Shown one piece after another: positions 781 to 56,168 of a stretch of DNA of 64,000 nt. Position 1 is the stretch's first letter, and the number at the start of each line of letters is the position of its first letter. Location of the stretch: NCBI RefSeq assembly GCF_009914755.1, contig NC_060931.1, one strand, 5' to 3'. Both the position numbers and the translations under genes were made by a program. The notes below the pieces were generated by a model. That model searched no databases, had not been told where the DNA came from, and saw only the letters and a program-made list of their open reading frames with translations. This stretch comes from the human T2T-CHM13v2.0 reference genome, Homo sapiens.

Positions 781-2177
781 CATACACAGAAGAGTGGCTA
801 GATACATAGCAACGATTTGATAAATGAAGAGTAGGTACTCAATAAAGCAGCACACATGGACTGGTTAGAAACACTATGAGGTATTAACTTAAAGAAGTCA
901 TTGTCACTTAAACAGGAGTACTCCCCAGTTATGATTAAGTGTTAATTTGAATAAAAATTACCACACAAGACCCATTTGTGTATTAATAACATATTTTGTC
1001 ATCTTTATACTCTACAAATGTGTTATGGAAAGAAAAATATTCTCTTTGGCCCTTATTTCACTGTTTTTATTTTTATATATAATTTTTGTTTAATTTCCTC
1101 TGTGTGATGATGAGATATGTCTGTTTCTATTTGGGAGGTGGTAGTTTAGATAAGTTATTTGGGCTCCCTGTGGTGTGCATGTCAGTTCACACTGAAAAAT
1201 GTGTCTTTTAAGTTTCCTGATCATGTCTTCCCAAGCATTTTGCATGGTGCAAGTCCATGTAATGTATTTCATAGAATCATTTCAAGTCTTATTATGGCAT
1301 ACATTCTACACAAATGCACTGATGTGGGAGGAACTCAGCATTATTTCTGTCCTATAGAGACTGAAATCCCACTGACACCATGACCAGATATAATAAATCG
1401 GTCTGATTTTTAAATGATTATTTAAGTAGAAAATAACAGATTGGTACTTTCAGTTTAGAACATTAAAATGGAAAAAGAATGCAGTGCCAATATTATATAT
1501 ATATTTATTTTAAAATATGATAAAACTAATTTTATTAGACTTCCTTATAGGGGAACCTCCCTTAAAAGACTGTGTTATTAAAGATATCAACTAAGAATTC
1601 TTTATTCCTTTCTCATTACTCTTTAAAAAATCTAAACCATAGTAAAATTCATATGGTTTTTGCCCCAAAGTTTTCTTCATACAGCATGCGTTACCAGTGG
1701 CTAAAATCTTTTGAAGTTACTGTTGCTAAACTCTTACTCTGCCTTTCTTTCCCCATTCAGAACCTGGGACAACTAATTGCATACAGTACAAGCTTAATAA
1801 TTTTTAATTTATTAAATTTAGAAGTACATGTTTCAAAAGAAAATGTTCTGGTCATTTGGCTAAAAGGTTTTTGATCTTTTTTTCTGAATTATAGCCATCA
1901 TTTAATTTCCTTCAAAATGCAAATCGCTGGTGAAGACAGCCATCAAATCATGGACTAACTTTTGAATTCAGGTAAGTCTGTACTAAAGTTACCACCAGCA
2001 ACTTTGAAGACAATCTATATTTAAAAATTTTTAGGCATGTAGATACTGCATAATAATAGGAATAATGCCCCTAGCAAATAATTTGTTCTCCGACATGTCA
2101 CCTTAACACTCTTACACATTAACTCGTGAGATAGGTAGGTAGTAGTATATTTATTCAACTCTTTAAATGTAGACAGA

Positions 2178-2995
2178 TTATGTACCCAATAATATGCTTT
2201 ATAAATTGGGTTTGCATAAAATAATAAATTTCTCAATGGACAGAATTGGCTTGCTTTACTTCTTTGATTAATAAATGTTAGCTTTTTGAGTCTTCATAAA
2301 CTTGTTATCAAAAAGTCTTGTTTGAACACTTGAGTTCTGATGAAGTCCTCATGGTATGGAGCTTCATAACTGTTTTTGTATAATCTATATCCTTCCGGAC
2401 TCTACCGGGTATAAGGGCCCCTTGGTAGGCTTTGGAGATTATACTACCATTCTACCTTGCTTGTGAGCAGAACCTAATCCAACAGAAATTGCTAGTTTTA
2501 GCCAGACTACATTGGAGCATAGACCATAACCTTTATGGTCCTTAATGTGGGAAACAACTGCCAACTAACATTTCAGTATTTTTTGTAATGATTTTTTTCA
2601 ACTTAATTGTTTCAGAGAAAATAATACTTCCTTTGATATCATTATATCAACATTCAAATAGCACTAAGTGGATTCACTGTTCTATACAGATAACTGTGTT
2701 TTTAAATACTGAAAGCATATTTTGTTAATGTAAAATATACATCATCGATATTATGTATTCCTTTGATACAATAATATAAAGGAATCTCAAATGTTTTCTT
2801 TTTGGAGATCAGAAGGATATAGATTATACTTCTACAATTATGAAGCTCCATACCATGAGGACTTCATCAAAACTCAAGCAAATGAAAAAGCTAACATTTA
2901 TTAATCAAAGAAGTAAAGCAAGTCAATAATTGTCCATTGAGAAATTTATTATTTTATGCAAACACAATTTATAAAGCATATTATCTGGTACATAA
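2178..2995. repeat. Long non-Alu inverted repeat (arms 2178-2395 and 2812-2995, loop about 415 nt)
   Basis: Manual alignment: about 104/111 and 61/67 reverse-complement identity in two blocks, separated by a 41-nt versus 6-nt asymmetric bulge. Confidence 0.95.
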
Positions 2996-3094
2996 ATATC
3001 CTAGTTGAGTCCATGGTGATATATAATTATTGCCATGATAGATTTATAATTATAGTTCAAGGAAAGTACCATAATAGGAAAATGTTATTTTGGT

Positions 3095-3110
3095 GGGGGG
3101 GGGGGGGGGG
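3095..3110 (+). repeat. G16 homopolymer
   Basis: directly visible, flanked by tggt/tggtggt. Confidence 0.95.
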
Positions 3111-3150
3111 TGGTGGTCTTAGGTTAAAAAGATTTTAAAGTCACTGTTGC

Positions 3151-3463
<313 letters not shown>

Positions 3464-4621
3464 GTTGCTATAAGTTTTTAAGAGAAAGGTAAAAAGAGAG
3501 CTGGCCTACTCAAGAGCAATACTTACATATTTTTTAGTGTAACTGATAACCTATAAATCTTATCTAAAAATTCTATGATTGACAGAAGTAAGCTTTTGAA
3601 TCAAAAGGGAAAATAAGGACAATTATAGAAATATAATTTGATTACACTTTTCTTGTGTAATGGTTGACTACCTATGAACTTCTTTCAGGAATTAATAATA
3701 ATTCAAATAATTGCCTATATATCAATTTTTAAAATGTGTATATGAAGATATTAAAGCAACGTTTCCTTACTTTGGCGTCTTTTGCCATGAAAACTATTCT
3801 TTTATTATGCCAGAAGACTTGTGGTTATTTTCTGAGACTCCCTCTGCTATTCTACTCCCCACCCTCTATCACCCCTGCCTGTGAATTCACTCCATTCATA
3901 GTAATGGCCACATCTCCATCTAGTGGCTTCCTAATCAATGACTACTTGGAAACCAATGACAAACACAACGAAAGTGCGTGCTCTAGTAATACATCATGAT
4001 GATTCCAGAGCATTAGAAAAGAAATTGCAAAACAGTAAATGAAGAACTAAATGCAAATCCAAGACCCAAAACATCTCTTTAGTAGTATTGAATAGAGAAC
4101 TCAGAAATTTCTTAAAAGGTTAATTAATAATTTTGGGCTAGATAATGTATATTAAATAAAATGAACTTAGAAACTAGAAGCACTTATTCTAAAATATTTC
4201 AATAAGAATATTTTGAGAGTAAAAAATCTAAAAAGTTATTTAAGTCAGATTTATTTTAAAAAGTAGAAAAATCTGAAAGGAATTGAAAGAGTGCATTAAA
4301 TTTGTGTTAGCATCTTTTGTAAATAAATTGAGATAACCACCTCTAAAAATTGTCATTAGGTAGTTCTCATAAAATACCATGAAGCCTGTATATCTGTCTC
4401 TGTAATGACAATTTTTACACAAAAACTTTATGAAAAATGATTTTTACATAAATATTGAATATGTTTCATTTAGGATTAGAAATGTACATGCCATTTGAAA
4501 TCAGCTATTTACAAAACAACAACATTGGTCCTGAGATTTTAATAACCTGGTTTCAGGAACATTAATATCGCAGATTTAGGAATATGGGTGATTTTCTAGA
4601 ATTTCAAGCCAAAAACAAAAA

Positions 4622-4738
4622 CTAAGAAAAATTAGAGAAAGTGACTGACCATCCACACCACATGAAAACTTGCAGTAAAATGAAGATAGGAGCTGACATC
4701 ATGGTACAGGCACGACTCGTTGTGCACTTAAGTTGATC
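4622..4738 (-). CDS. Candidate alternative terminal coding exon of CACNA2D1: DQLKCTTSRACTMMSAPIFILLQVFMWCGWSVTFSNFS* (GPI-signal-like)
   Basis: Pyrimidine tract, about 80-nt AG-free zone and TAG acceptor at 4739-4741; in frame with phase-0 exon 38; 38 aa + stop, same length as the recalled canonical last exon, with similar C/S/I/Q/W/S spacing. Confidence 0.7.
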   Translation of the reverse strand, partial: DQLKCTTSRACTMMSAPIFILLQVFMWCGWSVTFSNFS

Positions 4739-6431: not shown

Positions 6432-7090
<659 letters not shown>

Positions 7091-7651: not shown

Positions 7652-9054
7652 GACATGGACAGAATCAAGGGTTTTGAATTCCATCCCCTGTTTTGTCCAC
7701 ACCTTAAGCTGCTCTTACTTTAGTAACCAACATAAAAAATGTAAATATATCACTAAAAAAGTAATTTCTTTATCATTATACATTTTGCAGAAAAGTGGGA
7801 TTTTCTTTTTGCCCTGTTAAGCTTTGATTTCCATAAAGCAAATCAAAAGGAAAGTATGATGCAATTTAACATCTTGGTTATACTGACCTTCTTCACTTTA
7901 CAATTTAACTTACTTCTTTAAGCACACCAATTGCTCTTGCTGGATGTCAATTAATAAAAGGCCAATGTCTGTGAAACTCTGATGTATCCAATAAACATGC
8001 CACAATCCCATTTCCTGAAGTCCATAGCCTGATATGCTAATCTCCTCTAAACAAGACAGTCTGCTTTTTTTCTGAGTTCATGCTTGACTCTTCCTTCCCT
8101 TTCCTCTCCTCTTTATATACTCTACCTCCTCCTTGGAGATAGAGGTCTGCTAAAGAAAGTCATAAAACATACTGACCACGTCTCCTAAAAATTCATGATA
8201 GGTTGCTTAGCCCCTCTTGCAAAATTTTTTTTTTTAACTATTCTGGCACTTTCATAATCTCAGATTACCTCACCTCCTCCTATTTCTTCTTCCGCTATGG
8301 TAACATTTCTTCTAGAATAATCTTCCCTCCACCTCTAAAAACAAAGTGTCTCTACTCTGTGCTTTGTAAGCTGTGACTTGCTGCTCTCCTCTCAGGAATC
8401 CTGTGGCATTAATTATTACTTTCCCCTCAAAATCCCCATCTTGCCTTTCTCCTCTACCCTCATTACAACAAAATTAAATTCTCCATCTCTTTTTAAAAGA
8501 TATTTTATGGATACTGACTAACATTAACCATGACCTAAAAAAACTGTATTTTTCCCAGTTCCTTCAAATTCAAATAAAGATAACATTCAGTTCTTCAAGT
8601 CAGAGAAGACTAGAAGTAAAAACAAAACAAAACAAGACTTTTTTTTTGTAAATCTGTTTAGTTACTATATAGAAAAATAAATAATATTTGGCTTAGAATT
8701 ATTTAAATTACTAATATATTTAATAACTTTATATTAGAAATTTTTAATATGGGTTATTTTAGGAAAAAAAGTTAAAATATAATCAAATTTCTCTATGTTC
8801 TGCCTAAAGAGAAAGGAATTATCTTGATCATGTAATTATTATAGTTGAAGAAATAACAGCTTATCAAAGTTAGAATTTTAAAAATTACAAATTTTAAAAG
8901 TCTACAGAGAAACTAAAGATTGCTGACATTTTCAGCTTAAAACAATTACTCACATCTCTGACTCCAACACAATTTTCAGTTTTTTCTGTAATGATTATAA
9001 CAGTATATACAATTTCTTAATGAAATAGGACTACTCCTGAAATAAATAAATTAC

Positions 9055-22035: not shown

Positions 22036-22209
22036 GGGGCATCGGGGGCAAGGGGAGGGACAGCATTAGGACAAAAACCTAATGCATGCGGGGTTTAAAA
22101 CCTAGATGACAAGTTGATAGGTGCAGCAAACCAACATGGCACGTGTATACCAATGCAACAAACCTGCACGTTCTGCACATGTATCCCTGAACTTAAAAAA
22201 AAAAAAAAA
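22036..22209 (+). mobile_element. Heavily 5'-truncated L1PA (PA7/8-like) 3' end with poly(A)
   Basis: ttaaaacctagatgac...gataggtgcagcaaacc...aacctgcacgttctgcacatgtatcc + A-tail. Confidence 0.9.
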
Positions 22210-22220
22210 TTGCCTGGAGT

Positions 22221-22440
22221 TACACACATATACAAACACAACTGAGTGGACATAAAGCTAGTGAAATCTGAATAATATCAGTGAATTGTGTTTATGTCAG
22301 TTTCCTGGTTGTGATACTGTGTTAAACTTATACAAGATGTTGCCATTGGAGGAAACTGAGTAAAAGGTATATAGGTTCTCTCTGTATTATTTCTTGCAAC
22401 TGCATGTGAATCTATGACTGTCTGAAAATAAAAATTTAGA
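22221..22440 (+). mobile_element. Old L1MC-like 3' end
   Basis: caagatgttgccattggaggaaactg...tatttcttgcaactgcatgtgaatcta. Confidence 0.75.
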
Positions 22441-25920: not shown

Positions 25921-25933
25921 TTTTTTTTAAAAA

Positions 25934-25944
25934 GTGTGCGTGTG

Positions 25945-25979
<35 letters not shown>

Positions 25980-26012
25980 TGTTCAAAACAGCACATATAT
26001 ATATATATATAT
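25934..26012. repeat. Compound (TG)n(TA)n(CA)n...(TA)n microsatellite
   Basis: directly visible after the L1 tail. Confidence 0.9.
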
Positions 26013-29309: not shown

Positions 29310-29568
<259 letters not shown>

Positions 29569-44440: not shown

Positions 44441-47168
44441 CTACACAGAAAACAATAATAATTAGGTACATGTAACATTATACAATGATGCTGTGTATAA
44501 AACAATTTAACGGGTATTTATGAAATTGTGCAAAAATTACCTAGGATACAATAATTGTATAAAGGTATCTTCTTTCATATATATTTTATATATATATATA
44601 GCTTATATATAAAAGCTAGAGATTGAGCTTTAAGTGCAGGAAATCTTAATAAGCAAGTGAAGACAGTGTCATTTTGAGTGCTGTATTTGATACTGCATTT
44701 ATATTCACAAGCTCTTTGGGCACATCACTTTTGAAGAACCATTCACAACTTTCTTTTCATTAATTAGCATGGGAAAGGGGCAAAATATAGCCATTTGGAT
44801 GACTTATTTGGTAATAAAACAATGGCAACATGTAAGCATACTTTTAAAATTTGTAAAAAAAAAAAAAAGTGTATGAGAAAATGTTTTAAAATTATGTCTA
44901 CACTTGCCAAGTAAAACATTCTATTGGACCTGTTCTTCCTTCTGAAAGTATATAAAGAAAAGGTGCAAGTTTGCTTCATATATTTCAATCTAAGAAATTT
45001 TATATTTTAATAATTCAAATGACATCAGAATGTATAAGATAAATTTTGTGGTTGTCATAAAGATTTTAAGATTAGCTATTATAATTAAAGTCTTACTAGG
45101 ATAATAACCCCTGGGTTCAATGAATACTATTTCCTATTGCTTCTTCTTGCTGGTGTATAATAATAAAGAAAGAACACTGGGGAATAAGATAGATTCTTAT
45201 TTATTCATATCATTATATAAAATGATACTGTTAGTCTGGCAAATTTACCTCATATGATATTATTTTAATGTCTCAATTGCAAAATGAAGATTCATTGAAC
45301 TATTTGATAAACAAAATACAGTCAATTCCTCTATAACTTCCTAAGTAATGTAACATGTCATACTAAAATTTCAAAGCTTACTAGACCAATAAAATCGTAA
45401 TAGGTATATGTAATTTCATAATTGCAAAATTTTAGAAACTGAATTTTTAATTTTTATTAAAATATTACCTAAATCTGATAACTAGATTCCAGTAACAAAC
45501 GCAAACTATGCTGGATTAGTGCAAAGGTCACTCAAACTTTAATAATATAAGCCTCACAGACTCTTTCAAAAGATGTTCAAATTATCACCATTTTAAGCAC
45601 TGTTTTAGGAAGAAACTTCCCAAGGCAGTTGCAATAAGTAAAAATGTACTAAAATTAAGCATATCTTATCAAGATGTTGAATGACATAGTATACACGGCA
45701 TGTATTTACTGACAAAAATGCCTTCCTTCAAAGAGTAATTCCACCTAAAGATGAAAATTTTTGATTCCTATGGTTTTTGATAAATGAACATTCTTAAAGG
45801 CAAATTTTAAAAAATAGCCATGTCTGGCACTTTAATTGAAAAAAATATTCACTGCTTAAGTACTCTATCACTACAATCAGAAGATTCTAGAATACTGAAA
45901 ATAAGTATTAAATTTTTCAAAGGTGAAAATGCTGACCAGTATTGGTAAGATACTGATGACATCTTACTGCGTGAAAAGGAAATACTCATTTGAAATGCAG
46001 CGTATTTTAAAAGAATAAAATAAAAGCCAATGTTGAAAATTCTTCTAATTTCTTTGTTTAAAAAATGAAACCTAGAAAACCCCTAACAAAAGGATACTCT
46101 AAAGTTTACAACATTATTCAGAATTGCTCATTTAATGTCCCATGAAATAAACTGTCCTCACACAAACACCATCATATCAGCATTAAAATTTTAACAAACT
46201 CACTGCAAAGCAAAGTCAAAATAATGAAAATAATAAAAAGTAAACAGAAATAAGAGTATTTATCTTACATGCAATGGATAATGCATAGCATGACCAGACC
46301 CAAACAGCATGCATGGAGGAGGCATTATCAGGAAGAATTGGCAATATGAAGATCATGTCCCAATCCAGCATACAAAGACACAGAGAAGAAAATGAAATCA
46401 TAAAAGAAAAATCTCAATGCATAAGTTGTACTTTTAATATAGCAATCTAGCTGACCATTTTTTAAAAGATTCACCACGGGCATGGTGACTACAAAATTCA
46501 AAAGCATAATCTTTCAATAAGAAAGCACCAAGAGAGGCTGAAGAACTGGAATATAGTCTCTGCACACCCATTGTTTTTGTCTGATATTAAAATACCTAGT
46601 ATTTCTCATTTGCAAAATTTGGTTATCAATGGAAATAAATACCACACCATTTGTGGAAACGAAAGAATGAAATGTTAACAAATTTTAAATTGAAATAATT
46701 ACTAGATAGTATTACAAATGCTACTTAGTTCAAAAATAGCCTTCAAATTGAGGAGTCTTGTGTGGTTGCTAGTTTGCCATTTAGAGTTTTCTTAGAATGA
46801 AAACAAAAATAAAACAGACCATTTTCAGGTTGTTTATTTTTTAATTATATTGTTAAGAGTTACATGCAATATTTGAGGCTGCTGCAAAAACAAAAATTCA
46901 CTAAAATGCACATGACTGCAAAAGTATAAGATAATACATAAAAAGAAACATGCAAGGACAGTAACAAAACAATTTACTATATCAAGAAAGGCATAAACAT
47001 AATTTTAAACTTTATAGGAATTATAAAAGATATGAAGACTTTCATATGCAACAATAGGAAATTCAGTTTGTTCTAAAATTCTAGCACTGGAAGAGAGCTA
47101 AAGTTTCTCAACTAGGGCAGTGGCTCTGCACTTTAGACCTCCATGGGGAGCTTTAAAAACTATTTAGA

Positions 47169-47479
<311 letters not shown>

Positions 47480-47783
47480 AAAAACTATGTAGAGGCCTGG
47501 TCCCATCACTGCCAAATTAAATCAGAATTTTCAGAGGATGAGGCAGGGGACTGACATATATATATTTAATTTCCTAGGTGAATATACTGTGTAGGATGGA
47601 AACTAGTGACTAGTTCAATTCTCCTGCTTTTCAGATGAAGAAAATTAAACACTACAGGATTTAGTGGAGTGCTCAAGAACACAGTGTTGGCTTTCAGAAC
47701 CAAACTAGCACTCAATTCTACTAATTCACAGCTTATCCATCTCTTAATAACATATTACCTCTTCATTTTAATGTCACCAACTT

Positions 47784-48106
47784 ATTTATTTACTCATTTT
47801 GTTTTTGAGACGGGGTCTCGCTCTGTCACCCAGCCTGGAGGCAGTGGCACACTCTTGGCTCACTGCAACCTCTGCCTACTGGGTCCAAGCGATTCTGCCT
47901 CAGCTTCTTGAGTGGCTGGGACTACAGGCATGTACTACCATGCCTAACTAATTTTTCTTTCTTTTTTTTTTTTTTTTTTTTTTTTTTTTGTAGAGGCAGG
48001 GTTTCACTATGTTGGCCTGGCTGGTCTCAAACTCCTGACCTTGTGATCGGCCCTCCTCAGCCTCCCAAAGTGTTGGGATTATAGGCATGAGCCACCGTGG
48101 CCGGCC
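47784..48106 (-). mobile_element. AluS with expanded middle A-rich linker; TSD ttaatgtcaccaactt
   Basis: 16-bp TSD at 47768-47783 and 48107-48122. Confidence 0.95.
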
Positions 48107-48836
48107 TTAATGTCACCAACTTTTTCAAAGAAATGGTAGGCTTACCTACACAATCTTAAATAATGTTGAACATGCTTTGAAATTCTGAAATTCTCTTGCT
48201 AAGCTATAGGAAGTATCCTTTTATGTTGATTATTAATAGTTTTACTGTGCATTTAGAAATATTGTATACATGTGATAACTGAAGTTTTGTTGCCAAAAGG
48301 AAAAGCTTTCGCAATGAGTTTACCAGGCAATAAAAATTCACTACTTATTTGCACTTTGGTACATTTTTAATTAGCTAAGGGAAACTTCTTTAACTTCTAA
48401 CCCAAAATTACACTTTTTAGAAATTTTGGCTTAAAATCTGTGGCTTATGGAAACTGTCATATAGGAATTGTATTTTATTTCCACGTAGAAGTCAATTTAC
48501 AAGCAAATTGTTAGGATCACATGAATTTGACATTAATTTTACAATTTTAATAACAAATTTATTTTTAGAAGCCATCTCGTTATGATTTCTCTGATTATTA
48601 ACTTGATTCCATAATTGACTTTGCAATCTTTGGTTAGCCAATACACACCCTCTACCATCATTAATAACATTTTTGCTCCAGCTTATTAAGAAATGATGCT
48701 CATCTCATTTCATGCTCTGGAAGCTTGATGTCAGGAAAGGCAGCTTTAATTATAAGCTTTAAGAACAGAAGCTTAATCCCAACTTGGATTTAGCAAATTT
48801 GAAAGCACTGTTAAGGCTACCTTCATTCACAGTTAC

Positions 48837-54936: not shown

Positions 54937-55856
54937 CTAAAAATAGATTCAGAGAGAAAGGGCAAATTAAAATTACAATTTAAGCTTTGTCAGAGTGCAC
55001 TAACCTTTGATATCTGAGATTGCATTTTATAGTTACTTTATAAAGAGCCACAAAAACTAGTAACTCATTTTGAATATCTATTAAAATTTATTTTTAAAAT
55101 ATCAAGGAAAATATCTTGGAAATAATTAGGACCTACTAGGCACCTACTGAAGCATGCAACATTTAAAATAATCCTCTAAGATAACTTCAAAAATAATCAG
55201 CTTACACAAATAGTCAACAGCCTGTATGCATTTCAGTAACCCTGTGTCCTCCCCCTTTTTCATAGTGATAGTTCACCTAATATCAGGGCCTCCATAAGCA
55301 GAGTGATAATAAAATATTATTTTAAGTGATTATTTAGCTTCCCTTTTTGTAGCCTTATTCTTTATTTTTTATGCCCTAAGCCAAAGACTTCATGCTAAAT
55401 GAAAAATGTGCAGTTGAATAACATGATAAATAAAAGAAACATTCTATTGATACTGCATATCTGGGATATTCTAAGTAAATGTTACGCTCTTCAGAAGCAG
55501 TACTACTTTTCTAAGTAGACCCCAAAATAAGCAGTACTTTTTGACAAGTAAAATTATGAAGAAAAGACAACTGCAAGCATCAAATATAAAAGTCTAGTCT
55601 GAAGAGTTTAACATAGTAGAACTAATGCCATCCTATTAATCAGCACATAATTTAATACATTAAATGAATCCATACAGATTAGTCAAAATAAACTGATTTT
55701 CAAGTCAGAGTTTGCTTTTGTTACTGACATCTATATCCATTATAATTTTAACCATTTCATGTCAAAACTACATTTAACAAAATCACTCTTTAAAATAATT
55801 TTTATTGTTTGAAATTTTGAATTTGCTAAATGAGAAATTATTATTAATCTTCTCAC

Positions 55857-55948
55857 GAATAGTGATTCCAAATCCAAATCTCAAGAACTCAGAACAGAGT
55901 TCTGGAATCAGAACCGAGTTCATAAAGTTGGATTTGGAATAATTATTC
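55857..55948. repeat. Imperfect palindrome/hairpin with a 13-bp perfect core
   Basis: attccaaatccaa (55865-55877) / ttggatttggaat (55928-55940), plus gaata/tattc and gaactc/gagttc pairs. Confidence 0.85.
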
Positions 55949-56168
55949 ACTAGAACATTAAAAATATTTATTAATATCAGGGAGCAAATGTTGTGGTATC
56001 AGGTTGTGGTTCATAATTGTGCACATAGGAGGCCCAAATTCAATGGGAATATGAATGAATTAGGGAGGAGAGACAATAATAGAGAAGCTTCCAGAAGACC
56101 AAAATACCAAATTATTTGCAGCAAATAAAACTAAGGAAACAACCATACATATTTGGGTGCATGATGAT

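What the first reader, a model, noticed from the sequence alone, without database searches (positions are those of the whole stretch)
2178..2995. Long non-Alu inverted repeat in the last intron: predicted ~175-bp dsRNA stem
Seen: 2178-2287 pairs with 2885-2995 (about 94%) and 2329-2395 pairs with 2812-2878 (about 91%), around a loop of about 415 nt. I do not recognise it as a transposon. Read on the CACNA2D1 (minus) strand, three of the substitutions become G-U wobbles, one is an A-C mismatch, and most others cluster in small internal loops. Established: long imperfect intronic duplexes are ADAR substrates, and A-C mismatches are favoured editing sites. Inference: a selected RNA structure that recruits ADAR or other dsRNA-binding proteins and influences last-exon choice.
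Basis: partly seen in the sequence, partly recalled or inferred. Interest (0 to 1): 0.8.

Follow-up and report, generated by a model that had tools for sequence, protein, structure and literature searches.

The report
Single-copy intronic inverted repeat in CACNA2D1
A real, unusually long hairpin-forming inverted repeat lies in an intron of the calcium-channel gene CACNA2D1; it looks like a one-off local inverted duplication that would form double-stranded RNA, and nothing found here shows it was selected for a function.

Summary
Window 2178-2402 and 2805-2995 are inverted copies: 168 of 186 aligned columns are identical, with a 1-nt indel and a 35-nt insertion in the left arm. The CACNA2D1-sense (minus) RNA folds into about 174 bp of interrupted duplex around a ~400-nt loop, with MFE -354 kcal/mol and z = -22.8.

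It is not Alu. Apart from its own two arms it has no other copy in the T2T genome, whereas two true interspersed repeats from the same window gave 5868 and 4280 first-look candidates. There is no target-site duplication above chance.

Best reading: a young (primate-age), single-copy inverted duplication. It would be an incidental nuclear dsRNA and a probable promiscuous ADAR substrate.

Selection is unsupported. On the minus strand the transitions give 6 G:U against 3 A:C (p = 0.25). Half the mismatches sit in multi-base clusters, and a 41-nt versus 6-nt bulge interrupts the stem.

Conservation, editing and a Dfam match could not be tested with the tools available. Such non-repetitive predicted dsRNAs are already catalogued genome-wide (PMC11838218). 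Interest is modest.

The parts
2805..2995 (-). 5' arm of the hairpin in the CACNA2D1-sense (minus-strand) RNA. It is the right arm of the inverted repeat and carries two AAUAAA hexamers (2950-2945 and 2902-2897).
2403..2804 (-). Spacer or loop of about 402 nt. It is unique sequence, 31.6% G+C, with only small local hairpins.
2178..2402 (-). 3' arm of the hairpin in the minus-strand RNA. It is the left arm of the inverted repeat.
2288..2328 (-). 41-nt segment of the left arm that faces only 6 nt (2879-2884) in the right arm. It is a 35-nt insertion or deletion and makes a large asymmetric internal loop that splits the stem into an outer part of about 105 bp and an inner part of about 69 bp.
   Evidence: No local template for the insert was found.

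Best explanation
This is a single-copy local inverted duplication: one arm copied from the other in reverse orientation, about 400 bp away. It most likely arose by a replication template switch or fold-back repair in the primate lineage, and has since decayed by ordinary point and multi-base mutations. Because it lies inside a CACNA2D1 intron, both arms are transcribed in one pre-mRNA. On the minus strand it starts about 200 nt downstream of the annotated end of an alternative terminal exon. The arms should fold into about 174 bp of interrupted dsRNA. That duplex would be bound and promiscuously A-to-I edited by nuclear ADARs, as inverted Alu pairs are, and removed with the intron. Shown here: the repeat, its predicted fold, its uniqueness in the genome, and the absence of a target-site duplication. 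Inferred: the mode of origin, the age, the editing, and the lack of a selected function.
For: The two arms are each other's only relatives in the genome.
- DNA searches with the whole element, one arm, or the loop gave 1, 2 and 1 first-look candidates, all of them self.
- A search with 2.2 kb including the flanks added only simple-repeat hits.
- Two controls of similar length from the same window, an Alu at 29314-29566 and another interspersed repeat at 22042-22242, gave 5868 and 4280 candidates.
- An exhaustive 26-mer scan (2246-2271, up to 3 mismatches) found 3 places: the two arms and one place on contig C10. The C10 hit does not extend beyond 26-41 nt. The reversed control pattern gave 0 hits.
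- That scan would catch 93%, 50% or 21% of sibling copies at 6%, 14% or 20% divergence.

There is no target-site duplication. The best perfect flanking direct repeat is 5 nt, at asymmetric boundaries, and 371 of 500 random placements do as well or better.

Arm and loop composition (28-32% G+C) matches the flanking intron (27-33%).

Arm divergence is 18 of 186 columns (9.7%, CI 5.8-14.9%). Counted as mutational events it is about 10 of 186 (5.4%). That is far too low for two independent old insertions.

The decay pattern looks unconstrained. There are 9 transitions and 9 transversions, four multi-base clusters, and a 35-nt indel. G:U against A:C is 6:3, which is not significant.

In a published genome-wide scan (PMC11838218; sections 6, 7, 9, 10 and passages of section 12 read), long, well-paired, non-repetitive dsRNAs are a catalogued class. 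Evolutionarily conserved dsRNAs are described there as shorter and weaker (mean -42 kcal/mol), unlike this one.
Against: No outgroup genome could be consulted, so lineage restriction is inferred only from arm divergence. Gene conversion or selection for pairing would make the arms look younger than they are.

No Dfam or RepeatMasker run was possible. A family whose copies differ by 25-30% or more would largely escape my searches: the 26-mer probe catches only 8% and 3% of such copies.

The repeat boundaries are compatible with a TA dinucleotide on each side, which is uninformative but does not exclude a Tc1/mariner-type insertion.

The position just downstream of an alternative terminal exon, in a neuronal gene, and the slightly better fold on the transcribed strand (-354 against -339 kcal/mol) are what a functional element might also show.
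Confidence: 0.62

Rival explanations
1. It is a relic of a palindromic (foldback or MITE-like) DNA transposon with long terminal inverted repeats. It would be either the only surviving copy of a very small family, or an old element whose arms were kept alike by intra-element gene conversion.
For: The architecture fits: arms of about 200 bp, a unique 400-bp core, AT-rich sequence, about 820 bp overall. The sequence allows a TA on each side of TGTACC...GGTACA. Arm divergence of 5-10% is not far below what I recall for the last wave of primate DNA transposons. Family libraries (Dfam) were not available.
Against: There is no second copy in 3.1 Gb by DNA search or by the exhaustive 26-mer scan, while real repeats gave thousands of candidates. 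There is no target-site duplication of 4 nt or more at symmetric boundaries, and the best flanking repeat is at the chance level. The ends carry no terminal motif that I recognise for hAT, Tc1/mariner, piggyBac or Harbinger elements; this is from recall and was not tested. Composition is identical to the host intron.
Confidence: 0.15
2. The repeat is a selected RNA structure in the CACNA2D1 pre-mRNA that recruits ADAR or other dsRNA-binding proteins. It would modulate the choice between the proximal alternative terminal exon (4738-3195 or 4738-4269) and the distal last exon, for instance by pausing polymerase or by sequestering the two AAUAAA hexamers in its 5' arm.
For: The duplex is very stable and has perfect runs of at least 33 bp. 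It starts 200 nt downstream of the annotated 3' end of an alternative terminal exon (hub annotation). Two AAUAAA hexamers lie in the 5' arm. On the transcribed strand there are 6 G:U against 3 A:C, and the fold is 15 kcal/mol better than on the other strand.
Against: The wobble bias is not significant, p = 0.25. A 35-nt insertion and four mismatch clusters disrupt the stem. In PMC11838218, conserved dsRNAs are described as short and weak, and long well-paired ones as generally unconserved (passages of section 12). AAUAAA density in this AT-rich intron is 2.7 per kb anyway. The annotated exon end at 3195 sits exactly at the A-tail of a sense Alu, so it may reflect internal priming rather than a regulated poly(A) site. 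No paper links this gene to such an element.
Confidence: 0.1
3. It is a DNA-level element: a cruciform-prone or fork-stalling inverted repeat that matters for genome stability rather than for RNA. Alternatively it is a hairpin-RNA (endo-siRNA or miRNA-like) precursor.
For: The arms are long and similar, and both strands fold well (-339 and -354 kcal/mol).
Against: By established knowledge, a 400-bp spacer strongly disfavours cruciform extrusion. No Rfam family matches inside 2178-2995: all 6 matches at E up to 1 lie in the Alu at 3194-3462. Small-RNA data were not available.
Confidence: 0.05

Closest known systems
Non-repetitive intramolecular long dsRNAs of the human 'dsRNAome' (dsRNAscan, Andrews and Bass, PMC11838218)
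   Same: Both are intronic, the arms are not annotated repeats, and the loops run to hundreds of nt. The paper's edited non-repetitive class has a median of 144 bp, 30 contiguous bp, -185 kcal/mol, 87.5% paired and a 509-nt loop (Table 1). This element has about 174 bp, 38 contiguous bp (46 with wobbles), about -250 kcal/mol for the arms alone, and a loop of about 400 nt.
   Different: This element is longer and more stable than the class median.
Inverted Alu pairs (IRAlus), the main ADAR substrates in human introns
   Same: Two inverted copies lie within about 1 kb in one intron and form an imperfect duplex of 170-300 bp. The expected fate is the same: promiscuous nuclear A-to-I editing. A true example lies in this window at 47168-47471 / 47782-48107.
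   Different: The arms here are not Alu and have no other copies in the genome (against the Alu control). The arms derive from each other, not from two independent insertions, and they are more alike: about 90-94% here against 73% for the window's Alu pair.
Foldback or MITE-type DNA transposons with long terminal inverted repeats
   Same: Long inverted termini flank a short unique core, the sequence is AT-rich, and the size is under 1 kb.
   Different: There is no family, no target-site duplication above chance, and no recognised terminal motif.
Hairpins created by replication template switching (Monttinen and Loytynoja, PMC8794818; Loytynoja and Goldman, PMC5453318; seen as search listing and abstracts only)
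   Same: An inverted local copy is made in one mutational step, producing a ready-made stem. Later differences between the arms come in clusters.
   Different: As I recall them, the published cases are mostly tens of bases long. This copy is about 190-225 bp with a 400-bp spacer. No template for the 35-nt insert could be found.
Conserved editing-site complementary structures such as the GRIA2 Q/R hairpin
   Same: An intronic sequence pairs within a neuronal pre-mRNA and could recruit ADAR.
   Different: Those are short (28 bp with 2 mismatches, as quoted in PMC11838218 section 7), deeply conserved, and pair with an exon to recode a protein. Here both arms are intronic, no exon is involved, and conservation is unknown.

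Membership tests
Non-repetitive intramolecular long dsRNA (predicted ADAR substrate class) | Two complementary inverted arms of at least 25-30 bp in one transcript, folding far better than shuffled sequence | tested here: met
   About 174 bp of long-range pairs. MFE is -354.3 against -174.3 +/- 7.9 for shuffles, and 0 of 20 shuffles fold as well.
Non-repetitive intramolecular long dsRNA (predicted ADAR substrate class) | Arms do not overlap interspersed or simple repeats | tested here: inconclusive
   There are no other genomic copies, against thousands for two control repeats. The stretch is not in NCBI's mask (hub table). RepeatMasker and Dfam were unavailable, so an ancient family cannot be excluded.
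Non-repetitive intramolecular long dsRNA (predicted ADAR substrate class) | A-to-I editing sites on both arms in RNA-seq | not testable with these tools
Palindromic DNA transposon / MITE | Target-site duplication flanking the terminal inverted repeats | tested here: not met
   The best perfect flanking repeat is 5 nt at asymmetric boundaries, and 371 of 500 random placements reach 5 nt or more. A 2-nt TA cannot be judged.
Palindromic DNA transposon / MITE | Multiple dispersed copies in the genome | tested here: not met
   First-look candidates were 1, 2 and 1, all self. The 26-mer scan gave only the two arms plus one non-extending chance hit. Copies diverged by more than about 25% would mostly be missed.
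Palindromic DNA transposon / MITE | Match to a curated consensus (Dfam/Repbase) | not testable with these tools
Inverted Alu pair | Arms are Alu (7SL-derived) elements | tested here: not met
   SRP and Alu-derived Rfam matches occur only at 3194-3462, with none in 2178-2995. The arms have no genomic copies, whereas an Alu query gave 5868 candidates.
Selected / conserved RNA structure | Conservation and compensatory changes across species | not testable with these tools
   No vertebrate genome other than the window's own is held.
Selected / conserved RNA structure | Substitutions biased toward pair-preserving (G:U) changes on the transcribed strand | tested here: inconclusive
   6 G:U against 3 A:C among 9 transitions, one-sided p = 0.25. 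The other 9 differences are pair-breaking transversions.
Known miRNA or other Rfam RNA family | Covariance-model match | tested here: not met
   No match inside the repeat at E up to 1.

The most novel reading that the evidence does not exclude
A primate-born, single-copy hairpin of about 174 bp has been co-opted as a cis-regulator of the CACNA2D1 3' end. It sits 200 nt past an alternative terminal exon, locks two AAUAAA hexamers into dsRNA, and recruits ADAR or other dsRNA-binding proteins. In this way it would tune the ratio of truncated to full-length alpha2delta-1 transcripts in neurons.
Probability: 0.06. Interest if true: 0.65.

Novelty: new member of a known kind. Interest (0 to 1): 0.27.

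Why it matters
Long, well-paired dsRNA built from unique sequence is rare compared with Alu-derived dsRNA. It is a cleaner object for studying ADAR, PKR or MDA5 substrate rules, because reads map uniquely. This one lies in a pain- and epilepsy-relevant neuronal gene, the gabapentinoid target, next to an alternative 3' end. If it were edited or conserved, it would be a tractable case of a de novo RNA structure. As the evidence stands, it is most likely one more neutral intronic hairpin of a class already mapped genome-wide. Its value is as a candidate to look up in editing and dsRNA catalogues.

Tried and rejected
1. I first used the NCBI-masked stretch 8609-8791 as a 'repeat' control for the genome search, and it returned only itself. 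Reading it showed AT-rich low-complexity sequence, not an interspersed repeat. I dropped it and replaced it with two real repeats.
2. More sensitive family searches in the own genome were not possible. Sensitivity to old families therefore stays limited.
3. The hit on contig C10 from the 26-mer scan was rejected as chance: similarity extends only 26-41 nt.
4. I looked for a local template, direct or inverted, for the 35-nt insert in the left arm. Scores were 24 and 25, against a shuffle median of 21 and a 95th percentile of 28, so there is no support.
5. The target-site duplication scan was at chance level.
6. The Rfam scan found nothing in the repeat.
7. Literature searches. 'CACNA2D1' + 'inverted repeat' + 'RNA editing' gave 0 papers. 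'CACNA2D1' + 'ADAR' + 'intronic' gave 13 papers, 11 listed, none about this locus by title or abstract. 'CACNA2D1' + 'A-to-I' gave 4 papers. The one I opened (yak muscle, PMC9274240, passages only) names the gene only in a pathway list.

Full report
**Observation.** The sequence and the repeat finder show three collinear inverted pairs:
- 2178-2242 / 2931-2995 (65 nt, 95%)
- 2245-2287 / 2885-2927 (43 nt, 98%)
- 2329-2402 / 2805-2878 (74 nt, 88%)

I aligned the left arm to the reverse complement of the right arm. Between 2178 and 2398 there are 222 columns:
- 168 are identical.
- 18 are mismatches: 9 transitions and 9 transversions.
- 36 are gap columns: a 1-nt indel, and a 35-nt insertion in the left arm (2288-2328 facing 2879-2884).

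**Predicted fold.** Folded as RNA on the CACNA2D1 (minus) strand, 2150-3020 gives -354.3 kcal/mol. Shuffles give -174.3 +/- 7.9, so z = -22.8, and 0 of 20 shuffles fold as well. The long-range helices are 9, 21, 33, 4, 38, 46, 20 and 3 bp, 174 bp in all, with 7 G:U among the 185 long-range pairs of the whole fold. A self-BLAST of the 64-kb window finds one other pair of separate inverted copies with a spacer under 3 kb, an Alu pair at 47168-47471 / 47782-48107. It also finds two short self-complementary stretches.

**What it is not.**
- Not Alu or a known RNA family. All 6 Rfam matches at E up to 1 in 1500-3700 lie in an Alu at 3194-3462, and none lies in the repeat.
- Not a member of any detectable repeat family in the T2T genome.
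  - DNA searches with the whole element, the left arm, the loop, or 2.2 kb including flanks returned only the locus itself, the two arms matching each other, and simple-repeat hits at the (TA)n/T-run.
  - My first control was flawed. The masked stretch 8609-8791 also returned only itself, but it is merely AT-rich low-complexity sequence.
  - Two proper controls of similar length from the window gave 5868 and 4280 first-look candidates, with matches at 87-92% identity. The search does see families of that kind.
  - An exhaustive scan with a 26-mer from the best-conserved part of the arm (up to 3 mismatches) found the two arms and one place on contig C10. The reversed control pattern gave 0 hits. 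The C10 place shares only 26-41 nt with the element.
  - That scan would have caught 93%, 50%, 21%, 8% and 3% of sibling copies at 6, 14, 20, 25 and 30% divergence. A family as young as the arm similarity implies is excluded. A small or very old family is not.
- No target-site duplication. The best perfect flanking direct repeat is 5 nt at asymmetric boundaries, and 371 of 500 random placements in the window do as well. A TA on each side is possible but carries no information.
- Not compositionally foreign. G+C of the arms and loop (28-32%) equals that of the flanks (27-33%).

**What it most likely is.** Each arm's only relative is the other arm. They differ by 5-10%: 18 of 186 columns, or about 10 mutational events. 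The simplest account is therefore one inverted duplication of local intron sequence.

- If the arms have drifted neutrally, that divergence corresponds, by recalled primate divergence figures, roughly to the human versus Old or New World monkey range. That is a primate-age event. The confidence interval is wide and the sequence is CpG-poor (0-1 CpG per arm). Gene conversion would make the arms look younger.
- Replication template switching is a published route to ready-made hairpins and to clustered differences (PMC8794818, PMC5453318; listing and abstracts only). The scale here is larger than the cases I recall, and I could not find a local template for the 35-nt insert.

**How it would work.** By the hub's annotation, the repeat lies in the intron between the exon at 6465-6547 and the distal terminal part of CACNA2D1, which is outside the window. 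On the minus strand it begins 200 nt downstream of the annotated end (3195) of an alternative terminal exon. Both arms are therefore in one pre-mRNA and should form the duplex. By established knowledge, perfect runs of 33 and 38 bp, and 46 bp with wobbles, are ample for ADAR binding and promiscuous editing.

The element resembles the 'edited, non-repetitive' class of the dsRNAscan survey, which has a median of 144 bp, 30 contiguous bp, -185 kcal/mol and a 509-nt loop. It does not resemble that survey's conserved class, which is short, averages -42 kcal/mol and is rarely edited (PMC11838218). Being intronic, the duplex would be degraded in the nucleus and would not meet cytoplasmic sensors. Editing itself is inferred, not shown.

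**The case for selection.**
- On the minus strand the 9 transitions give 6 G:U and 3 A:C, one-sided p = 0.25.
- The other 9 differences break pairs.
- Four clusters and a 41-nt versus 6-nt internal loop interrupt the stem.
- The plus strand folds almost as well, -339.4 kcal/mol.
- Two of the three A:C adenosines have a 5' G, which I recall as disfavoured by ADAR.
- Two AAUAAA hexamers lie in the 5' arm, but the intron averages 2.7 such hexamers per kb.
- The nearby exon end at 3195 coincides with the A-tail of a sense-strand Alu, so it may be an internal-priming artefact rather than a regulated site.

None of this refutes a function, and none of it supports one. Conservation, covariation, editing and duplex-capture data were out of reach.

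**Literature.** No paper connects CACNA2D1 with an inverted repeat or with editing at this place. The searches gave 0, 13 and 4 papers, and the one paper I opened was irrelevant.

**Verdict.** This is a real, statistically overwhelming, single-copy, non-Alu inverted repeat. It is best read as a young local inverted duplication that yields an incidental intronic dsRNA (confidence about 0.6). The rivals are a solitary or ancient foldback transposon (0.15), a selected regulatory dsRNA (0.1), and other roles (0.05). It is a new member of a known and already catalogued kind, and its interest is modest unless editing or conservation data say otherwise.

Noticed in passing
window 3171-3462 (minus strand): A sense-oriented Alu with an A-tail of about 25 nt lies here. 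The annotated 3' end (3195) of the alternative terminal exon 3195-4738 falls exactly where this genomic A-run begins, so that transcript end may reflect oligo-dT internal priming rather than a true poly(A) site.
   Followed up: partly
window 3087-3170: Between the Alu tail and the inverted repeat lie a run of about 24 nt of G (C on the gene strand), interrupted by T, at 3087-3113, and a (TA)n microsatellite at about 3141-3170. Both are potential non-B DNA or polymerase-slippage sites.
   Followed up: no
window 47168-47471 / 47782-48107: A classical inverted Alu pair (73% by BLAST, 311-nt spacer) lies in the same gene. The first Alu overlaps an exon of another annotated transcript (46269-47220). 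It is a more conventional candidate for ADAR editing.
   Followed up: no
window 55836-55969: A self-complementary stretch of about 134 nt (73% to its own reverse complement) has ends ...ttccaaatccaa... / ...ttggatttggaa.... It could be a small palindromic element or hairpin, and lies about 390 nt upstream of the first exon of CACNA2D1-AS1 (56357).
   Followed up: no
window 25925-25988: A compound microsatellite (GT)n(TA)n(CA)n is its own reverse complement. This explains the self-inverted BLAST hit.
   Followed up: yes
window 8609-8791: A stretch masked in NCBI's file is only AT-rich low-complexity sequence with no other genomic match. The mask in this window (10%) is therefore not a guide to interspersed repeats.
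   Followed up: yes
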